Shown here: positions 659-62,502 of the stretch, piece after piece | How positions within the stretch are numbered: the stretch's first letter is position 1 | Layout: each line of letters opens with the position of its first letter | From: Escherichia coli | GTDB lineage: Bacteria; Pseudomonadota; Gammaproteobacteria; Enterobacterales; Enterobacteriaceae | Length of the DNA: 64,000 bases | Strand: one strand, 5' to 3' | Assembly: GCF_044647545.1 (NCBI RefSeq) | Contig: NZ_CP172818.1 | Notes under the pieces: model-generated | Database searches by the model: none | What the model was told of the DNA's origin: nothing | What the model saw: the letters and a program-made list of their open reading frames with translations, nothing else | Made by a program: the position numbers and the translations under genes

Positions 659-996
659 TCAGGACATAAGCAACTGAAATTGATGGCTGGCATGACGAGG
701 GATGCAGATGCTGATTTCATTACCCCCGGTGATTACTAAAGGAGAGGCGAAAACGACTTTATTCCCCTGGTATATGTATCCACCAGTAGAACCCTTCGTT
801 GCCCGAATGCTGGCAGGAACTGTTGGCAGAACGGCAACATTTTTTTTGTCGTTGACCTCACCATGTCGATCACTGTGCCTGTATCCCACCTTACTGGCTG
901 ACAACCCCACTATGCCGCTGGTCTGTAAATCCCTCATATCTCTCCTCGCGCGCAATTTAAAGAACCGTTATTTCTCAAGAATTTTCAGGGACTAAA

Positions 997-5337: not shown

Positions 5338-5654
5338 TTTCCTGCTAACCATTCACCACTCAACAACCAGCTAACCGTCAGGAATACCAGGCTTAGTACA
5401 CAGCACTGAAAGTAGAAACCACTCCAGCCATTCGTCATCAATTTAAACAACACAATACTGACCCACATTCCCGTAATCGTATGAATTGTCAGCTTAATAA
5501 TCCCAAACATGCCGAGTCTTTTCCTCCTGAAAATACCTATACCGCCTGGCAAACTGCGAAAGAGAACTAGCCGGTAGCCCGGCAGAAATCATCAGGGAAG
5601 AGTTTCACATGAAGCAGGTGTGAGATCCTGACCAATATTCAAATGCAAAATATG

Positions 5655-6383
5655 TCAGGAAAAGGTACCTGGCGAATGTTGCGCAAACTGATGTGGCGTT
5701 ACACCATAATATTGTCGAAATGTGTTTATAAAGTACGACGTACTGCTATAGCCACATTTTTCCGCAATAGTATGCAGAGGAATTTGACGTAACTCGAGTA
5801 ATCGTCTGGCCATCGACATCCTGGAGGCGAGTAATATTTTACTGAAACAGGTATTTTCATCCTGCAACTTTTTTTTGATGAGACTCTCGCTGGTATACAT
5901 TCTTTCCGCAATATCGCGCAGATACCAACGTTTGGCGATATCAAAGCTAATAAGGCGTTCAACTTTTCCTGAAACAGTACTGATACTATTGAAAAGTAAG
6001 GGGATCAGTTCTTTCTTATGAGAAAACATCGATAAACAGGAAAGATAGAGCATTTTGCTCAATATCGGCGAATTTACCCCGGAGTCATTGAAACTATCAA
6101 AAATCGCCGTCACCAGCGGCATGGGGGGTGACTGGTTAATTAACAGACGGTCTTTGCTATGTAACCCTAAATTGCGTGGTATCTGACGAATATTTTGTAA
6201 GTAATGGCAAACTGTCAGCTCATCGATATCCAGTCGTCGTGTATCCGGTGAACAAAACGCAAAATCGTCTGCCAAATTTTTATCCAGTAACAGGATACTC
6301 TCGTTATGCAACGATATTTTTTGCTGTTCATGATGAATATCGAATGAACGACGAACGAGGATCACCGAGCAGACATGAGTCAT
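5655..6383 (-). CDS. gadW: GadW, AraC-family regulator of the gad system (242 aa)
   Basis: 242-aa ORF with C-terminal AraC-type HTH; located downstream of gadX on the minus strand. Confidence 0.92.
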   Translation of the reverse strand: MTHVCSVILVRRSFDIHHEQQKISLHNESILLLDKNLADDFAFCSPDTRRLDIDELTVCHYLQNIRQIPRNLGLHSKDRLLINQSPPMPLVTAIFDSFNDSGVNSPILSKMLYLSCLSMFSHKKELIPLLFNSISTVSGKVERLISFDIAKRWYLRDIAERMYTSESLIKKKLQDENTCFSKILLASRMSMARRLLELRQIPLHTIAEKCGYSSTSYFINTFRQYYGVTPHQFAQHSPGTFS

Positions 6384-6629
6384 GACTATCCCTTATATTT
6401 CATTGCTGCGATTATTTCAATTTCAGTATACTAATGAAATGATGCCTGACTGTTTCTTAGCGCAAAAACTGCCAGATTTGGTAGGACCAAAATTTATCCA
6501 CAAAGTAGTTTTGCATAACAGTTAATTGATAATAAGTAAATGCAACACGAATATATTTTCGCACAGCGTATAGCTTATGTTTATAAAAAAATGGCTGATC
6601 TTATTTCCAGTAAAAGTTATATTTAACTT

Positions 6630-6735
6630 ACTGAGAGCACAAAGTTTCCCGTGCCAACAGGGAGTGTTATAACGGTTTATTAGTCTGGAGACGGCAGACT
6701 ATCCTCTTCCCGGTCCCCTATGCCGGGTTTTTTTT
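6630..6735 (+). ncRNA. gadY: GadY small RNA, antisense to the gadX 3' UTR
   Basis: Plus-strand sequence actgagagcacaaagtttcccgtgccaacagggagtg... ending in hairpin cccggtcccctatgccggg plus T9, in the gadX-gadW intergenic region opposite to gadX. Matches my recollection of GadY; the 5' end is approximate. Confidence 0.7.
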
Positions 6736-6751
6736 ATGTCTGAGTAAAACT

Positions 6752-7576
6752 CTATAATCTTATTCCTTCCGCAGAACGGTCAGTGCCGTAAAAATTCCCT
6801 TGCGCAGCCATACTTGCCGCCGGGCCACAGTTCGGTAATTCCTGCGCCGATCGCTCCTGATACTCTGTGGGCGTCATCCCATAATAATTTCGAAAAACGT
6901 AAATGAAATACGACACGCTGTGATATCCACAGGATACTGCAACTCGCTTAATTGAAACCCCATATATAACAATAAGTTGTAAAGCACGCTGCATCCTACA
7001 CTCAGTAAGCAACTGTGAATATGACGTACCTTCTTCGCGCAATTTTTTCTTTAACAGGCTTGGACTCATCAACAATTCGCTAGCGATTCGGGCTAATGTC
7101 CACTCATGGGCGATATTATTATTGATGACCGTACAAACTCGTGTTCGCATATTCGGTTGCAACACGTTCAGAAGTAACGGTATAAACTGCGTATCCTCAA
7201 GAAAAACAGATAACAACGCAAAGATTAATGCCCTTTTACGTAGCATTTCTGCATAGCGAAGATTCTTATTCTGCGACAGTTGCGCAACTTCCTGAAAAAC
7301 AGGAATATCTCTGGTACAGTGATGAACGAGTAATGAAGGAACTTTTTTATGTGCATGAAGTTTTAATGCCTCCTCCTTGAGCATCGGGAGAAATAATGAA
7401 AGCGTGTCTCTTGAAACTAATACGAAATTCTCAACACACTTATCCACTTGAATTTGGCTTGCATCCGCAAAAACCAGATCACCGCCATTAAAATAGCGAT
7501 ATTCACCATTAACCATGGTGAGAATATATTTATGTCTTGCGTACGCAATTAGACAATTACCATGTAGTGGTTGCAT
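6752..7576 (-). CDS. gadX: GadX, AraC-family activator of gadA/gadBC (274 aa)
   Basis: 274-aa ORF with AraC-type HTH C-terminus; immediately downstream of gadA on the minus strand. Confidence 0.93.
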   Translation of the reverse strand: MQPLHGNCLIAYARHKYILTMVNGEYRYFNGGDLVFADASQIQVDKCVENFVLVSRDTLSLFLPMLKEEALKLHAHKKVPSLLVHHCTRDIPVFQEVAQLSQNKNLRYAEMLRKRALIFALLSVFLEDTQFIPLLLNVLQPNMRTRVCTVINNNIAHEWTLARIASELLMSPSLLKKKLREEGTSYSQLLTECRMQRALQLIVIYGVSIKRVAVSCGYHSVSYFIYVFRNYYGMTPTEYQERSAQELPNCGPAASMAAQGNFYGTDRSAEGIRL

Positions 7577-39957: not shown

Positions 39958-41633
39958 CTCAATTTACGCAAAATACCGCCATGCCTTCTTCCCTCTGGCA
40001 ATACTGGCGCGGCCTTTCCGGCTGGAACTTCTATTTTCTGGTTAAGTTCGGCCTGTTGTGGGCGGGATATCTTAACTTCCATCCGCTCCTCAATCTGGTG
40101 TTTGCCGCGTTTCTGCTGATGCCCATTCCGCGCTACAGCCTGCATCGCTTACGCCACTGGATTGCCCTGCCGATCGGCTTTGCTTTGTTCTGGCATGACA
40201 CCTGGTTGCCTGGCCCGGAAAGCATAATGAGCCAGGGTTCGCAGGTGGCGGGGTTCAGTACCGATTATTTAATCGACCTTGTCACACGCTTTATTAACTG
40301 GCAGATGATTGGGGCCATTTTTGTTTTATTAGTGGCCTGGTTATTCCTGTCACAATGGATTCGCATTACCGTTTTTGTGGTTGCCATTCTGCTATGGCTG
40401 AACGTACTTACCCTGGCGGGACCAAGTTTCTCCTTGTGGCCAGCCGGTCAACCAACGACCACTGTAACAACGACGGGTGGTAACGCAGCGGCAACCGTTG
40501 CGGCGACGGGTGGCGCACCGGTAGTGGGTGATATGCCCGCACAAACTGCACCGCCAACAACGGCGAACCTTAACGCCTGGCTGAATAATTTCTATAACGC
40601 GGAGGCGAAACGTAAATCAATCTTCCCGTCTTCGCTGCCCGCTGATGCTCAGCCATTTGAACTACTGGTGATTAATATCTGTTCGCTTTCCTGGTCGGAT
40701 ATTGAAGCCGCCGGGTTGATGTCGCATCCGCTGTGGTCGCATTTCGATATTGAGTTCAAGAACTTTAACTCCGCCACCTCCTACAGTGGCCCGGCGGCGA
40801 TCCGTTTACTGCGCGCCAGCTGCGGGCAGACTTCGCACACTAATCTGTATCAACCGGCAAATAACGACTGCTATCTGTTTGATAACCTGTCGAAACTGGG
40901 CTTTACCCAGCACCTGATGATGGGACATAACGGCCAGTTCGGCGGTTTTTTGAAAGAAGTTCGCGAAAATGGCGGCATGCAGACCGAATTGATGGATCAA
41001 ACAAATCTGCCGGTTGTTTTGCTGGGCTTTGATGGTTCGCCGGTTTATGACGATACCGCCGTGCTTAACCGCTGGCTGGACGTTACCGAAAAAGATAAAA
41101 ACAGCCGTAGTGCCACGTTCTACAACACGCTTCCACTGCATGACGGCAACCATTATCCGGGCGTCAGCAAAACAGCGGATTACAAAGCGAGGGCGCAGAA
41201 ATTCTTTGATGAACTGGACGCCTTCTTTACTGAACTGGAGAAATCGGGTCGTAAAGTGATGGTGGTCGTGGTGCCAGAACACGGCGGCGCGCTGAAGGGC
41301 GACAGAATGCAGGTATCTGGCCTACGTGATATCCCTAGCCCGTCTATCACAGACGTCCCCGTTGGGGTGAAATTCTTCGGCATGAAGGCACCACATCAGG
41401 GGGCACCGATTGTCATCGACCAACCGAGCAGCTTCCTGGCTATCTCCGATCTGGTGGTTCGCGTTCTTGATGGCAAGATTTTCTCCGAAGACAATGTTGA
41501 CTGGAAAAAACTCACCAGTGGGTTGCCACAAACAGCACCGGTCTCCGAGAACTCAAATGCAGTAGTTATTCAATACCAGGATAAACCGTACGTTCGCCTG
41601 AACGGCGGCGACTGGGTGCCTTACCCGCAATAA
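39954..41633 (+). CDS. bcsG: BcsG (YhjU), membrane phosphoethanolamine transferase modifying cellulose (559 aa)
   Basis: 559 aa with N-terminal TM segments and a C-terminal alkaline-phosphatase-superfamily domain. Confidence 0.92.
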
Positions 41634-41643
41634 GAACGAAAAA

Positions 41644-41669
41644 GGCCGCAGAGTTTCCCCCTGCGGCCT
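41644..41669. terminator. Bidirectional hairpin between convergent bcsG and ldrD
   Basis: ggccgcag-agtttccccc-tgcggcc, flanked by an A-run upstream and a T-containing tail downstream. Confidence 0.55.
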
Positions 41670-41718
41670 GATCCGGGCGCAAATTGCCATTACGGCAGCC
41701 TGACGCCCACATGACACG

Positions 41719-41826
41719 TTACTTCCGCTTATTCAGCCAGTTCACGATCAGACTGGCAAGAATGCCAGCAATGACCGGAGCCGCTAAATCATGCCAGAAG
41801 GCCATGCCCAGCTCTGCGAGCGTCAT
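41719..41826 (-). CDS. ldrD: LdrD, type I toxin peptide (35 aa)
   Basis: C-terminal 35 codons of ORF 41719..41994 read MTLAELGMAFWHDLAAPVIAGILASLIVNWLNKRK, the Ldr peptide family; ATG at 41824-41826. Confidence 0.85.
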   Translation of the reverse strand: MTLAELGMAFWHDLAAPVIAGILASLIVNWLNKRK

Positions 41827-41875
41827 ATAGCCGCCTGAGTTGTAATGACAACGTTTCGCGGCTATTCTTGAGTGG

Positions 41876-41941
41876 TCTAGAGTCAAGATTAGCCCCCGTG
41901 ATGTTGTCAGGTGCATACCTGCAACGTGCGGGGGTTTTCTC
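41876..41941 (+). ncRNA. rdlD: RdlD antisense RNA (type I antitoxin of ldrD); approximate coordinates
   Basis: Plus-strand segment opposite the ldrD leader ending in hairpin cccccg...cgggggttttct; position inferred from the known ldr/rdl arrangement, ends not verified. Confidence 0.5.
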
Positions 41942-42301
41942 TCTCCAGCAACCAATGCCACCAGGGATAAAGCCCCCGCAACATTGCGCCTCACCGGAAC
42001 CTTTCCGGCTTGCCACTGATTCTACGATTGCTTTTTACCGTCAGCACCCGGCAATCTTCCTCATTGCGTGATGCATTCCAGCTTAATTTCTTTATTTGCA
42101 ATAGTTGCAGTTCATATCCGGGCTGACTCCAGACTGGTAGTGAAATGCGCATTTTTGTAGAATTGCGCCTCCTCGCGACCTCCCCAGTGAATCTGTTGCC
42201 TCATTTTTTACATACTGCGTATTCGACTTCTCCACCTGTTGCGCAAGAGAAACTGGGTTTATTCATTTTTGCGAGGCCGACTTCTTTCTGGACAGGACTT
42301 T

Positions 42302-43573
42302 ATGCAGCACAACACACTACCGAAACACGATCAGAAAATGCCGTTTACACGCTACGACTTCGGCTGGGTTTTATTATGCATAGGCATGGCGATTGGTGCC
42401 GGAACCGTGCTGATGCCAGTACAAATTGGCTTGAAGGGAATTTGGGTATTTATTACCGCAGCGATCATTGCTTATCCTGCCACCTGGGTAGTGCAGGACA
42501 TTTATTTAAAAACCCTTTCTGAAAGCGATTCCTGTAATGACTACACCGATATTATCAGTCATTACCTGGGGAAGAACTGGGGAATTTTCCTCGGGGTTAT
42601 CTACTTTTTGATGATTATCCACGGGATTTTTATCTACTCTCTCTCCGTGGTTTTCGACAGCGCCTCGTACCTGAAAACCTTCGGTTTAACCGATGCCGAT
42701 CTTTCACAATCTCTACTTTATAAAGTCGCCATTTTCGCCGTACTGGTGGCAATTGCGTCTGGTGGTGAACGATTACTGTTTAAGATTTCCGGGCCAATGG
42801 TGGTGGTCAAAGTAGGGATTATCGTCGTGTTCGGTTTTGCGATGATCCCGCACTGGAATTTCGCCAATATAACCGCCTTCCCGCAAGCCTCCGTCTTTTT
42901 CCGCGATGTCCTGCTTACCATTCCCTTTTGCTTCTTTTCTGCGGTATTTATTCAGGTACTTAACCCAATGAATATTGCCTATCGTAAACGGGAAGCGGAT
43001 AAAGTACTGGCAACCCGGCTCGCGCTGCGTACCCACCGAATTAGTTATGTCACGCTCATCGCGGTGATCCTGTTTTTTGCCTTTTCGTTTACCTTCTCAA
43101 TTAGCCACGAAGAAGCCGTTTCTGCCTTTGAACAAAATATCTCGGCACTGGCACTGGCCGCGCAGGTGATCCCTGGGCATATCATTCATATCACCTCTAC
43201 GGTGCTGAATATCTTTGCCGTACTGACCGCATTCTTTGGCATTTATCTCGGTTTCCACGAGGCCATTAAAGGCATTATTCTCAATCTGTTAAGCCGAATT
43301 ATTGATACCAGGAAAATTAATTCACGCGTGCTGACTCTGGCGATCTGCGCTTTTATCGTCATTACGTTGACGATTTGGGTTTCGTTTCGTGTATCGGTGC
43401 TGGTGTTCTTTCAGTTGGGAAGCCCGTTATATGGCATTGTGTCGTGCCTCATTCCGTTTTTCCTGATCTATAAAGTCGCACAACTGGAAAAACTTCGCGG
43501 ATTTAAAGCCTGGCTGATTCTGCTTTACGGCATTTTGCTATGCTTGTCGCCACTGTTGAAGCTGATTGAGTAA
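42302..43573 (+). CDS. yhjV: Putative amino-acid transporter YhjV (HAAAP/STP family), 423 aa
   Basis: ORF 42239..43573 trimmed to the ATG at 42302 ([22 protein letters not shown]); polytopic membrane protein. Confidence 0.88.
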
Positions 43574-49287: not shown

Positions 49288-49860
49288 TATTCTGCTCCAA
49301 TTGTGATGTTTGTTGTTTTAACCCTTTGCAGTGGGTTGTCGCCGCCTGACCTTTTTTGTTTTTTGCCCGGTCGGGTCAACGTTATGAGGTGGGGATGCCG
49401 TACTAATTAACATCAGTGTAACAGTGCGGATCCTCCAGAAAATGCCCCTCGTGACCTACAATCTGTCAACAGAATGTGAAAACGTCAATACAGCCAACCG
49501 GGATTTACACCAACGGTGAGAATCAACAAACAAAGATTAAAAAAACTTCAAACAGCTATTTGCAGCAGAGAAATTTGTGCTACGCCAACACAACCAGAAC
49601 AATCAGCTTAATATTTAGCAACATTTGGTGATTAAGTTTTATGCATTTAATGAAAAAAATCTGAGGTAAAGGTGGATATCTGAGCGATTAATACCATGAA
49701 CGCTAAAACGCACAGGGGAAAATGCCAGCGCCAGCCATAAGTAACGCAAAAAAAGATTTAAGCAAATATAAAAAAAGACAATGGTTTCTGTCACAAATCC
49801 GTTAATGGATAGTGAGATATGGGGCGCAAATTTGGCAGGGAAATGTGTGGTGTGTAGATC

Positions 49861-49937
49861 GGATAAGGCGGTCGCGCCGCATCCGACAATGGGCCGGTAC
49901 ATTTGCCTGATGCGACGCTGACGCGCCTTATCAGGCC
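49861..49937. repeat. REP/BIME cluster upstream of dppA
   Basis: ggataaggcggtcgcgccgcatccgac and gcctgatgcgacgctgacgcgccttatcaggcc are REP-type palindromic units. Confidence 0.7.
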
Positions 49938-50801: not shown

Positions 50802-50878
<77 letters not shown>

Positions 50879-62067: not shown

Positions 62068-62075
62068 GCACATCA

Positions 62076-62234
62076 ACGGTTTGACGTACAGACCATTAAA
62101 GCAGTGTAGTAAGGCAAGTCCCTTCAAGAGTTATCGTTGATACCCCTCGTAGTGCACATTCCTTTAACGCTTCAAAATCTGTAAAGCACGCCATATCGCC
62201 GAAAGGCACACTTAATTATTAAAGGTAATACACT
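62076..62234 (+). promoter_or_regulatory. cspA 159-nt 5' UTR (cold-box and thermosensor leader)
   Basis: Leader beginning acggtttgacgtacagacc..., which matches the cspA mRNA 5' UTR as I recall it; ends at the cspA ATG. Confidence 0.7.
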
Positions 62235-62447
62235 ATGTCTGGTAAAATGACTGGTATCGTAAAATGGTTCAACGCTGACAAAGGCTTCGGCTTCATCACT
62301 CCTGACGATGGCTCTAAAGACGTGTTCGTACACTTCTCTGCTATCCAGAACGATGGTTACAAATCTCTGGACGAAGGTCAGAAAGTGTCCTTCACCATCG
62401 AAAGCGGCGCTAAAGGCCCGGCAGCTGGTAACGTAACCAGCCTGTAA
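62235..62447 (+). CDS. cspA: Major cold-shock protein CspA (70 aa)
   Basis: Exact CspA sequence [70 protein letters not shown]. Confidence 0.97.
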
Positions 62448-62474
62448 TCTCTGCTTAAAAGCACAGAATCTAAG

Positions 62475-62502
62475 ATCCCTGCCAAATGGCGGGGATTTTT
62501 TT
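62475..62502 (+). terminator. cspA rho-independent terminator
   Basis: atccctgcc-aaat-ggcggggat followed by tttttttatttg. Confidence 0.7.

What the first reader, a model, noticed from the sequence alone, without database searches (positions are those of the whole stretch)
41719..41960. ldrD/rdlD type I toxin-antitoxin module between the bcsEFG and yhjV transcription units
A 35-codon ORF encodes MTLAELGMAFWHDLAAPVIAGILASLIVNWLNKRK, an Ldr-family membrane toxin. It is hidden at the 3' end of a longer artefactual 91-aa ORF in the track. The opposite strand over its leader carries a GC hairpin plus T-run consistent with the Rdl antisense RNA. It would be missed by size-filtered gene callers.
Basis: partly seen in the sequence, partly recalled or inferred. 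Interest (0 to 1): 0.3.

Follow-up and report, generated by a model that had tools for sequence, protein, structure and literature searches.

The report
Known ldrD/rdlD toxin-antitoxin module
This is the well-known E. coli ldrD/rdlD module, a 35-residue membrane toxin gene kept in check by a small antisense RNA, sitting where it does in strain K-12, so the finding is correct but ordinary.

Summary
The observation and the interpretation both hold.

- **Toxin:** a 35-codon ORF on the minus strand (41826..41719) matches Pfam Ldr_toxin over its full length (90.7 bits, cut-off 27). It is 33/35 identical to K-12 LdrD and matches PDB 5LBJ.
- **Antitoxin:** on the plus strand, 41875..41940 matches Rfam rdlD end to end (88.1 bits, cut-off 50). 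It differs from K-12 rdlD at one base.
- **Context:** bcsE-bcsF-bcsG / ldrD / rdlD / yhjV, as in K-12. 5,425 of 5,426 complete E. coli genomes have a match to the unit.
- **91-aa ORF:** its N-terminal extension is not conserved in LDR-A/B/C, so it is an artefact as a protein.
- **Extent:** the functional unit is wider than reported (~41636..42024). It includes an inferred toxin promoter, a 185-nt leader and a terminator.
- **Mechanism:** RdlD's target ends 48 nt upstream of the ldrD AUG, so repression must be indirect. A comparison of 48 units from several enterobacterial genera supports a hok-like folded mRNA.
- **Local twist:** flanks are 100% identical to E. coli 20AR0192, which carries two tandem modules. 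The window's single copy is a chimera of the two, either a real unequal crossover or an assembly collapse.

Verdict: already known, low interest.

The parts
41719..41826 (-). ldrD coding sequence: 35 codons plus stop. The peptide has a single hydrophobic helix (most hydrophobic 15-residue stretch is residues 14-28) and a C-terminal KRK.
   Evidence: ORF and translation. Pfam PF13940 90.7 bits, full length. PDB 5LBJ 'Small toxic polypeptide LdrD', E 9.5e-19, residues 1-35. Hydropathy. The exact peptide is in public data on 831 contigs.
41875..41940 (+). rdlD antisense RNA gene: a single-stranded 5' tail of about 16 nt, a long GC-rich hairpin (about 41891..41936) and a U-run.
   Evidence: Rfam RF01813 88.1 bits, model positions 1-66 of 66. 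The K-12 rdlD annotation maps to 41875..41938. Fold z = -5.1. Terminator-like site. 65/66 identical to K-12.
41840..41868 (+). Inferred rdlD promoter: -35 TTGTAA (41840-41845), 17-nt spacer, -10 TATTCT (41863-41868), 6 nt before the rdlD 5' end.
   Evidence: Read from the sequence. Identical in K-12 LDR-D and conserved in LDR-A/B/C. It falls below the threshold of the consensus scan. Inference, not mapped.
42019..42024 (-). Inferred ldrD -10 box, TAGAAT. The transcript start is inferred about 7 nt downstream, near 42011.
   Evidence: GTAGAAT, TAGTAT or TAATAT (TATAGGAT in the Kluyvera units, no clear match in Pluralibacter) sits at a fixed distance from the 5' hairpin in Escherichia, Citrobacter, Klebsiella, Salmonella and Pseudocitrobacter units, while sequence further upstream diverges completely. 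LDR homology begins at about 42012. Inference.
41827..42011 (-). ldrD 5' untranslated leader (~185 nt). It contains the RdlD-complementary segment (41940..41875), and the SD AGGCGG (41836..41831) lies 4 nt before the AUG.
   Evidence: Nearly invariant between LDR-D and LDR-A/B/C and more conserved than the CDS. Consensus structure on 48 units.
41907..41984 (-). Upstream ORF in the leader: ATG 41984, 25 codons (MLRGLYPWWHWLLERENPRTLQVCT), stop 41909..41907, with SD-like GGUGAGG 4 nt upstream. It is a candidate for the proposed 'ldrX'-type leader ORF.
   Evidence: An ATG or GTG start is detected at the same position in 41 of 44 unique units. Length and frame vary (11-88 codons), and the start is lost (ACG or GCG) in three units. 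The ldrX hypothesis is cited in PMC4147584 and PMC8167048. Its identity with ldrX was not verified.
41858..41896 (-). Predicted target hairpin in the ldrD leader: arms 41896-41884 and 41870-41858, loop 41883-41871. Nine loop bases (41883..41875) are complementary to RdlD nt 1-9.
   Evidence: Consensus helix 6, 99% of cells paired, 2 pairs with compensatory change. The loop is the most variable segment among paralogues.
41676..41990 (-). Long-range fold-back. The 5' GGCGC (41990-41986) pairs with the 3' UTR GCGCC (41680-41676), and 41852-41843, just upstream of the SD, pairs with the 3' UTR 41692-41683.
   Evidence: Single-sequence fold -181.3 kcal/mol, z = -7.7. Consensus helices 1 (invariant in 48/48) and 7 (3 pairs with compensatory change).
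41636..41669 (-). ldrD intrinsic terminator: 11-bp GC-rich stem (41669..41643) plus a T-run. It abuts the bcsG stop codon (41631-41633).
   Evidence: Terminator scan. Consensus helix 11 with 4 compensatory pairs.
41699..41709 (.). Apparent recombination junction. To the left the window equals tandem copy c1 of E. coli 20AR0192, and to the right it equals copy c2.
   Evidence: Allele-by-allele comparison. Flanks are 100% identical over 5,634 and 5,698 bp.

Best explanation
The locus is the chromosomal ldrD/rdlD type I toxin-antitoxin module (LDR-D) of E. coli. The minus strand gives an mRNA of about 375 nt (inferred start near 42011, terminator near 41636). It has a 185-nt structured leader and encodes the 35-residue LdrD peptide, a single-helix inner-membrane toxin with a cytoplasmic KRK tail. 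The plus strand gives the 64-66-nt RdlD RNA (41875..41940), which is perfectly complementary to the middle of that leader. RdlD's target ends 48 nt upstream of the AUG and 38 nt upstream of the SD, so it cannot block the ribosome-binding site directly. The most likely course of events is as follows. (1) The full-length mRNA is held translationally inert by a fold-back in which the 5' end and the segment just upstream of the SD pair with the 3' UTR, while the SD sits in a small local hairpin. (2) RdlD's single-stranded 5' tail nucleates on the loop of a leader hairpin and the duplex then extends. (3) The duplex prevents the leader from supporting ldrD translation, by blocking ribosome transit from an upstream ORF and/or the refolding needed to expose the SD, and it is cut by RNase III. 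Shown in K-12 (literature): LdrD toxicity, rescue by RdlD, and an RNase III-dependent dsRNA at the overlap. Shown here: gene identities, geometry, and conservation and covariation of the RNA helices. Inferred: transcript ends, promoters, steps 1-3, and expression in this strain.
For: Identity:
- Pfam Ldr_toxin 90.7 bits against a cut-off of 27.
- Rfam rdlD 88.1 bits against 50, full length.
- 33/35 identical to K-12 LdrD and 65/66 to K-12 rdlD.
- PDB 5LBJ match.
- Collinear with the K-12 annotation.
- 5,425 of 5,426 complete E. coli genomes have a match to the unit.

Geometry: 48-nt gap between the RdlD target and the AUG.

RNA structure:
- The window mRNA folds at -181.3 kcal/mol, z = -7.7.
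- On 48 units, 79 consensus pairs are 98.6% paired, against 38-50% when partners are slid.
- 13 pairs show compensatory change, against 5.7 +/- 1.5 in shuffles (0 of 500 reach the observed value).
- The helix coordinates were mapped back to the window.
- Across the pattern scan, every enterobacterial Rdl-type hairpin with enough flanking sequence has an Ldr ORF on the opposite strand, and no unrelated hairpin does.

Literature:
- LdrD is toxic and RdlD counteracts it; the antitoxin overlaps the 5' UTR, not the RBS; the ldrX coupling model is stated to be unconfirmed (PMC4147584).
- A ~21-nt dsRNA peak lies in the rdlD/ldrD overlap, at K-12 3,698,166-3,698,199, which maps to window ~41882..41915. 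Both RNAs are slightly stabilised in an rnc mutant (PMC7373196).
- LdrD forms an alpha-helical transmembrane domain (PMC8309996).
Against: - There are no expression data for this strain.
- The consensus promoter scan found no sigma-70-like site at its threshold, so both promoters are read by eye and by conservation only.
- The Rdl hairpin shows no double-sided covariation (0 pairs). Its lower stem was fixed by my search pattern.
- RNAalifold derived the mRNA consensus structure from the same alignment on which the pairs were counted, which inflates agreement.
- The upstream ORF start is missing in three units that still have intact ldr genes, and its frame is not conserved. This weakens obligatory translational coupling.
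- A 2021 review states that the RdlD mechanism is unknown.
- ldrD and rdlD deletion mutants showed no change in proton-gradient dissipation in one study.
- A window-specific base at 42015, between the -10 box and the start, has unknown effect.
Confidence: 0.9

Rival explanations
1. The single module in the window is not the true genomic state. The source genome carries two tandem Ldr/Rdl modules, as E. coli 20AR0192 does, and the assembly collapsed the 483-bp repeat into one chimeric copy.
For: The flanks are 100.000% identical to 20AR0192 over 11.3 kb, yet the unit is a mosaic: the c1 allele up to 41699, c2 from 41709, c1 again at 41901, then c2. No complete E. coli genome has this 383-bp unit at more than 98.4% identity. 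Tandem arrays of these units are common: two units 483 bp apart in Escherichia sp. E1V33, and two or three in the Klebsiella oxytoca-group genomes.
Against: A real unequal crossover gives the same main pattern. The related strain ST648 has a genuine single copy, of c1 type, in a complete genome, so copy number does vary in this lineage. The base at 42015 is unique to the window and is not explained by collapsing c1 and c2. The A at 41901 is also the commonest state across the family.
Confidence: 0.35
2. RdlD acts strictly as Sok does: it blocks translation of a leader ORF (ldrX) whose translation is required for ldrD translation. RNase III cleavage is secondary.
For: The model was proposed in the literature. 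A leader ORF start with an SD-like GGUGAGG is detected in 41 of 44 unique units, and the ORF runs into the RdlD-complementary region. In some Citrobacter and Kluyvera units it is fused in frame to ldr. A sub-threshold Rfam 'sok' alignment covers 41977..41824 and ends on the ldrD AUG (22.6 bits against 59).
Against: In the window the conserved ORF starts 44 nt upstream of the RdlD target and stops at 41907, 81 nt before the ldrD AUG. It therefore overlaps neither RdlD's likely nucleation site at its start codon nor the ldrD initiation region. The start is lost in Citrobacter sedlakii, C. amalonaticus and Pluralibacter units, and it stops after 11 codons in Klebsiella spallanzanii. The only ATG inside the RdlD target (41916, in frame with ldrD) is specific to LDR-D. 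I could not retrieve the original definition of ldrX.
Confidence: 0.3
3. The real product is a longer protein, either the 91-aa ORF from GTG 41994 or a 65-aa form from ATG 41916, rather than the 35-aa peptide.
For: The frame is open for 63 or more codons upstream of the ldrD ATG in LDR-D type units.
Against: Pfam matches only residues 57-91. The extension is absent from LDR-A/B/C and varies from 3 to 63 open codons among genera. The ldrD ATG has its own SD, AGGCGG, at 4-nt spacing. The solved structure and the toxicity work used the 35-mer.
Confidence: 0.03
4. The module is an inert chromosomal relic: sequence-intact, but neither expressed nor consequential in this strain.
For: Roles of chromosomal type I systems are debated. 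ldrD and rdlD mutants had no phenotype in proton-gradient assays. The close relative's other copy, c1, carries W30S, and a Pseudocitrobacter copy has a premature stop, so decay does occur in the family.
Against: The ORF, SD, both promoter-like boxes, the RdlD hairpin and all mRNA helices are intact and match K-12, where both RNAs are detected. Strong conservation of non-coding elements across genera argues for selection. An rdlD mutant showed slightly increased depolarisation.
Confidence: 0.1

Closest known systems
E. coli K-12 ldrD (b4453) / rdlD (b4454), the LDR-D module
   Same: Same position between bcsG and yhjV, same strands and spacing. The peptide is 33/35 identical and rdlD 65/66 identical. 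Leader, SD, terminator and promoter-like boxes are collinear, with about 13 differences in the 669-bp intergenic region.
   Different: Peptide substitutions F3L and M26L; this exact variant is itself common, on 831 public contigs. RdlD has A instead of G at 41901, turning a G.U pair into A-U, which is the commoner state in the family. There is a unique base at 42015. The unit is a c1/c2 chimera relative to a two-copy relative.
E. coli K-12 LDR-A/B/C (ldrABC / rdlABC tandem array near kdsA-chaA)
   Same: Same architecture and about 81% nucleotide identity over window 41630..42012. The 5' leader is nearly identical, and the Rdl lower stem and terminator are the same.
   Different: Peptide identity is only 21/35. 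The Rdl 5' tail and apical loop differ, which probably sets cognate specificity. A 1-nt indel before the SD changes the upstream frame. The chromosomal location is different.
hok/sok (with mok) of plasmid R1 and its chromosomal homologues
   Same: It works alike. A small membrane toxin is made from a stable, highly folded mRNA with a long leader. A short cis-antisense RNA targets the leader rather than the toxin's RBS. There is 5'-3' fold-back pairing, a leader ORF and RNase III cleavage of the duplex.
   Different: It is not a member. There is no Hok Pfam match, and the Rfam sok model scores 22.6 bits against a gathering score of 59. The leader ORF does not overlap the toxin start in the window. 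3' processing and activation have not been shown for ldr.
Fst / RNAI-RNAII (par locus of pAD1): the Fst/Ldr toxin superfamily
   Same: The literature places Ldr and Fst in one toxin superfamily: a single transmembrane helix with a conserved Pro...Gly (P17-x-x-x-G21 here) and a charged C-terminus. Both cause nucleoid condensation on overexpression.
   Different: The RNA arrangement and hosts (Firmicutes) are different. No detectable sequence match was sought or found here. The similarity is taken from the literature only.

Membership tests
Ldr/Rdl type I toxin-antitoxin (LDR) family | A hydrophobic peptide of about 35 residues matching the Ldr toxin profile | tested here: met
   Pfam PF13940 90.7 bits (cut-off 27), positions 1-35 of 35. 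PDB 5LBJ LdrD, E 9.5e-19. NCBIfam gave no hit.
Ldr/Rdl type I toxin-antitoxin (LDR) family | A cis-encoded antisense sRNA of the Rdl family on the opposite strand | tested here: met
   Rfam RF01813 88.1 bits (gathering 50), full length, at 41875..41940 on the plus strand.
Ldr/Rdl type I toxin-antitoxin (LDR) family | The antisense RNA overlaps the toxin mRNA's 5' leader, not its RBS or start codon | tested here: met
   The RdlD-complementary segment 41940..41875 ends 48 nt upstream of the AUG (41826) and 38 nt upstream of the SD. The layout is as described in PMC4147584.
Ldr/Rdl type I toxin-antitoxin (LDR) family | Embedded in a long-direct-repeat unit homologous to the other LDR copies | tested here: met
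   About 81% identity to K-12 LDR-A, -B and -C over window 41630..42012. Tandem 483-bp copies in a relative with identical flanks.
Ldr/Rdl type I toxin-antitoxin (LDR) family | LdrD orthology: position between bcsG and yhjV | tested here: met
   Collinear with NC_000913.3 bcsG-ldrD-rdlD-yhjV. The peptide is closest to LdrD (33/35, against 21/35).
Ldr/Rdl type I toxin-antitoxin (LDR) family | The peptide is toxic on overexpression, and toxicity is relieved by the cognate Rdl | not testable with these tools
   Shown for K-12 LdrD/RdlD in the literature. Not shown for the L3/L26 peptide or the A27 RdlD variant.
Ldr/Rdl type I toxin-antitoxin (LDR) family | Both transcripts are made: a stable toxin mRNA and a short antisense RNA | not testable with these tools
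   Only sequence signals are available: conserved -10-like boxes and terminators. K-12 northern and dsRNA data are in PMC7373196.
hok/sok family | Match to the Hok toxin or sok/hok-leader RNA models | tested here: not met
   Pfam reports only Ldr_toxin. Rfam sok RF01794 scores 22.6 bits, below the gathering score of 59.
hok/sok family | A leader ORF (mok-like) whose start is targeted by the antisense RNA and which overlaps the toxin start | tested here: inconclusive
   A conserved leader ORF start exists at 41984. In the window, however, it lies outside the RdlD target and the ORF ends 81 nt before the ldrD AUG. It is fused to ldr only in some genera.

The most novel reading that the evidence does not exclude
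The comparative data suggest that ldr mRNAs across Enterobacteriaceae share a hok-like architecture. This comprises a 5'-3' clamp invariant in all 48 units compared, a covarying helix tying the pre-SD segment to the 3' UTR, a covarying target hairpin whose variable loop is complementary to RdlD's 5' tail, and a leader ORF whose start, but not its frame or peptide, is conserved. A 2021 review calls the RdlD mechanism unknown, so this would be a concrete and testable model: fold-back inhibition, plus tail-loop recognition, plus ribosome transit rather than a leader peptide. It may already have been proposed in papers I could not read (Kawano 2002 and 2012; Gerdes and Wagner 2007).
Probability: 0.2. 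Interest if true: 0.35.

Novelty: already known. Interest (0 to 1): 0.08.

Why it matters
It matters little beyond correct annotation. ldrD/rdlD is a textbook type I toxin-antitoxin pair, present in essentially every E. coli genome. Three things are useful in practice:
- rdlD and the full transcript architecture are often left unannotated in automatically annotated genomes.
- This locus varies in copy number and can be chimeric or collapsed in assemblies.
- The leader and 3' UTR carry conserved RNA helices that give a testable model for a regulatory mechanism reviews still describe as unresolved.

Tried and rejected
- **NCBIfam:** the scan of the peptide returned nothing. I rely on Pfam and PDB instead.
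- **Promoter scan:** the generic scan found no site at its 9-of-12 threshold. The promoter boxes are therefore inferred from conservation.
- **Unavailable papers:** I tried to read Kawano 2012 (RNA Biol) and Fozo 2008 (MMBR) for the exact ldrX coordinates and mapped transcript ends. Neither is held, so identity between the 41984 uORF and 'ldrX' is unverified.
- **Rdl hairpin covariation:** the test gave 0 compensatory pairs. The family is too conserved and my search pattern fixed the lower stem, so I do not claim covariation support for RdlD itself.
- **Sub-threshold Rfam 'sok' hit:** treated as a hint of analogy, not membership.
- **Non-enterobacterial pattern hits:** those in Rothia, cyanobacteria, Planctomycetes MAGs and others lack any Ldr ORF. 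I rejected them as ordinary terminator hairpins.
- **Longer product:** the 91-aa or 65-aa in-frame extension was rejected as the product on conservation grounds.
- **Second copy:** a search for another Ldr copy elsewhere in the window found none (tblastn).
Full report
**1. Observation**

The minus strand carries an ATG at 41826..41824 and a stop at 41721..41719. Together they enclose 35 codons that translate to MTLAELGMAFWHDLAAPVIAGILASLIVNWLNKRK. The peptide matches Pfam PF13940 (Ldr_toxin) over all 35 profile positions at 90.7 bits (cut-off 27, E 5.8e-26). The 91-aa ORF matches the same model only in residues 57-91. NCBIfam returned nothing.

On the plus strand, Rfam RF01813 (rdlD antitoxin) matches 41875..41940 end to end at 88.1 bits (gathering 50; E 2.6e-17 for the whole window, 3.5e-19 for the local search). 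That RNA folds into a 5' single-stranded tail followed by a long GC-rich hairpin and UUUUCU. The fold energy is -31.7 kcal/mol, z = -5.1, with none of 200 shuffles as stable, and the terminator scan flags the same site.

**2. Context and identity**

The 559-aa ORF ending at 41633 is bcsG, and the ORF starting near 42303 is yhjV. The K-12 record annotates bcsG, ldrD (minus strand), rdlD (plus strand) and yhjV in the same order and spacing. A base-by-base alignment of the intergenic region is collinear, with about 13 differences in 669 columns. K-12 rdlD maps to window 41875..41938.

- The peptide is 33/35 identical to K-12 LdrD (F3L, M26L). It is only 21/35 identical to LdrA, B and C.
- rdlD differs from K-12 at one base (41901, G to A).
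- The peptide matches the solved structure 5LBJ, 'Small toxic polypeptide LdrD', over residues 1-35.
- Its most hydrophobic 15-residue stretch is residues 14-28, and it ends in KRK.
- This exact peptide variant is present in public data on 831 contigs. The K-12 variant is on 995.
- 5,425 of 5,426 complete E. coli genomes have a match to the unit, with a median of four places per genome.
- No other Ldr copy exists in the window.

**3. True extent of the module**

Homology to K-12 LDR-A/B/C (about 81%) spans window 41630..42012, which is wider than the reported interval. In an alignment of the toxin strand, the leader from about 42012 to 41925 is almost invariant between LDR-D and LDR-A/B/C, more so than the coding sequence.

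A -10-like box sits at a fixed distance upstream of the conserved 5' hairpin in most genera compared: Escherichia, Citrobacter, Klebsiella, Salmonella and Pseudocitrobacter. It reads TAGAAT at 42024..42019 in the window, with TAGTAT or TAATAT elsewhere; the Kluyvera units have a divergent TATAGGAT, and Pluralibacter shows no clear match. Sequence further upstream is unrelated. I therefore infer a transcript start near 42011.

A GC-rich hairpin at 41669..41643 with a T-run on the minus strand abuts the bcsG stop codon. This gives an mRNA of about 375 nt. For rdlD, TTGTAA (41840-41845), a 17-nt spacer and TATTCT (41863-41868) precede the 5' end by 6 nt, and these boxes are conserved in the paralogues. 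These promoter and end assignments are inferences. The generic promoter scan found nothing at its threshold.

**4. The longer ORF and the leader**

The in-frame extension that creates the 91-aa ORF is specific to LDR-D type copies. In LDR-A/B/C a 1-nt indel before the SD changes the frame, and a stop lies 31 codons upstream. Across 44 unique units from several genera, the open in-frame stretch ranges from 3 to 63 codons. 'Artefactual' is justified for the protein.

The leader does, however, hold a recurrent short ORF. It has an ATG at 41984 preceded by GGUGAGG, runs 25 codons and stops at 41909..41907. The start is found at the same position in 41 of 44 unique units. Three observations argue against a conserved peptide:
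- Its length runs from 11 to 88 codons.
- The shared nucleotides are read in a different frame in LDR-C and in the Klebsiella group.
- The start is lost (ACG or GCG) in three units that still have intact ldr genes.

Reviews cite a proposed leader ORF, 'ldrX', whose translation would be coupled to ldrD and blocked by RdlD, and they say this is unconfirmed. I could not obtain the papers that define ldrX, so I do not equate the two.

**5. Related loci elsewhere**

I made one scan of species-representative genomes for TTAGCCCCCG-N(18-36)-CGGGGGTTTT. It gave 68 loci. Every enterobacterial hit with enough flank has an Ldr-profile ORF (39-86 bits) on the opposite strand at the expected place. These are Citrobacter, Kluyvera, Pseudocitrobacter, Pluralibacter, the Klebsiella oxytoca group, Salmonella enterica subsp. 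arizonae and diarizonae, and other Escherichia. None of the unrelated hits (Rothia, assorted MAGs) has one, so those are ordinary terminators.

On 43 distinct Rdl sequences, the hairpin is paired in 96.3% of cells, against 42-53% for slid controls. There is no double-sided covariation, and the lower stem was fixed by my pattern. At the pair affected by the window's 41901 A, A-U is the commonest state (22 sequences) and K-12's G.U is rare (4).

**6. How it probably works**

The RdlD-complementary segment (41940..41875) ends 48 nt upstream of the ldrD AUG and 38 nt upstream of the SD AGGCGG. Direct occlusion of the ribosome-binding site is therefore excluded, as the literature also notes.

The window's inferred full-length mRNA folds at -181.3 kcal/mol, z = -7.7. 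A consensus fold of 48 units gives 79 pairs that are 98.6% paired, against 38-50% when slid. Thirteen pairs show compensatory change, against 5.7 +/- 1.5 in shuffles (0 of 500 reach the observed value) and 3-7 when slid. The caveat is that the structure was derived from the same alignment.

Mapped to the window, the helices are:
- **5'-3' clamp:** GGCGC 41990-41986 with GCGCC 41680-41676, invariant in 48 of 48 units.
- **5' stem:** 41985-41970 with 41941-41923. It buries the leader ORF's AUG, and its right arm lies inside the RdlD target.
- **Target hairpin:** 41896-41884 with 41870-41858. Its 13-nt loop contains the complement of RdlD nt 1-9, and it has two compensatory pairs. The loop is the most variable part among paralogues.
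- **Pre-SD to 3' UTR helix:** 41852-41843 with 41692-41683, with three compensatory pairs.
- **SD hairpin:** a small hairpin pairing the SD (41835-41832) with codons 2-3.
- **Terminator:** four compensatory pairs.

This is the hok logic: an inert fold-back mRNA, with antisense recognition through a single-stranded tail and a target loop. In K-12, a ~21-nt RNase III-dependent dsRNA peak lies in the overlap, at coordinates that map to window ~41882..41915. Both RNAs are slightly stabilised in an rnc mutant. LdrD overexpression causes rapid growth arrest and nucleoid condensation. LdrA causes an ATP drop within minutes, which is the basis for a membrane-directed action. A 2021 review states that the molecular mechanism of RdlD is unknown. 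The steps I propose are inference, supported by conservation and not demonstrated.

**7. A local peculiarity**

The 12-kb neighbourhood is 99.9% identical to E. coli ST648, but the 721-bp ldrD interval is only 98.8% identical to it. No complete genome has the 383-bp unit at more than 98.4%. The explanation lies in strain 20AR0192. Its flanks are 100.000% identical to the window over 5,634 and 5,698 bp, and it carries two tandem modules 483 bp apart. Each has a full-length rdlD (86.3 and 87 bits).

The window equals copy c1 up to 41699 and copy c2 from 41709 on. The exceptions are 41901 (the c1 allele) and 42015 (unique to the window). The window peptide equals the c2 peptide, whereas c1 and ST648 have W30S. 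The window copy is therefore either a product of unequal crossover or gene conversion, or a collapsed assembly of a two-copy array. Sequence alone cannot decide. Tandem arrays also occur in Escherichia sp. E1V33 and in the Klebsiella oxytoca-group genomes.

**8. Comparison and verdict**

This is the LDR-D (ldrD/rdlD) module, and it meets every sequence-testable defining feature of the Ldr/Rdl family. It works like hok/sok but is not a member of that family: the Rfam sok model scores 22.6 bits against a gathering score of 59, and there is no Hok profile match. The finding is already known and of low interest. The only mildly new material is the comparative RNA-structure model and the copy-number chimera.

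Noticed in passing
window 41634-42302, compared with L004 (NZ_CP195401.1) 5635-6785: A strain with 100% identical flanks has two tandem Ldr/Rdl modules (483-bp period) where the window has one. The window copy is a c1/c2 chimera with its junction at 41699-41709, plus a c1 allele at 41901 and a unique base at 42015. It is either a real recombination product or an assembly collapse.
   Followed up: yes
window 41984-41907 (minus strand): A 25-codon upstream ORF in the ldrD leader, with an SD-like GGUGAGG. Its start codon is conserved in most enterobacterial Ldr units, but its frame and length are not (11-88 codons, fused to ldr in some Citrobacter and Kluyvera units, start lost in three units).
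   Followed up: yes
window 41824-41977 (minus strand): A sub-threshold Rfam 'sok' (RF01794) alignment to the ldrD leader, ending exactly on the ldrD AUG (22.6 bits, gathering 59, E 0.0086). It is suggestive of hok-like leader organisation but is not a family match.
   Followed up: partly
L002 (NZ_CP008697.1) and L004 (NZ_CP195401.1): The RefSeq/PGAP annotation of these genomes calls the ldr CDS but lists no rdlD ncRNA, although Rfam finds full-length rdlD there. The antitoxin RNA is the part that automatic annotation misses, not the toxin.
   Followed up: partly
window 6627-6740 (+), 776-847 (+), 49857-49937 (+), 62075-62502 (+), 50802-50878 (-): Other RNA features above Rfam gathering scores: GadY (150 bits), ES205 sRNA (105 bits), naRNA4/CssrE (63.3 bits) and the cspA thermoregulator 5' UTR (500 bits). 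There is also a tRNA-Pro (CGG). All are consistent with the K-12 gadW-to-cspA region.
   Followed up: no
L055 (NZ_JABWSY010000055.1, 'Bacillus sp.', 503-bp contig, coverage 0.66): It carries an Rdl hairpin identical to the window's LDR-D type, including the GTGATG variant. This is almost certainly Escherichia contamination in a Bacillus assembly.
   Followed up: no
L059 (Pseudocitrobacter vendiensis) 1258-1642: The ldr ORF has a premature stop at codon 31 (…AAIVGW*RNRK), which removes the basic C-terminal tail. It is a likely inactivated toxin copy with an intact Rdl hairpin.
   Followed up: no
L064 (Klebsiella spallanzanii) 5536-6879; L044, L062 (K. oxytoca, K. michiganensis): Tandem arrays of two or three Ldr/Rdl units with a period of about 477-480 bp. 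The peptides have D or E instead of H at position 12 (WDD/WED in place of WHD), and there is an 8-9-nt insertion in the leader's apical loop.
   Followed up: no
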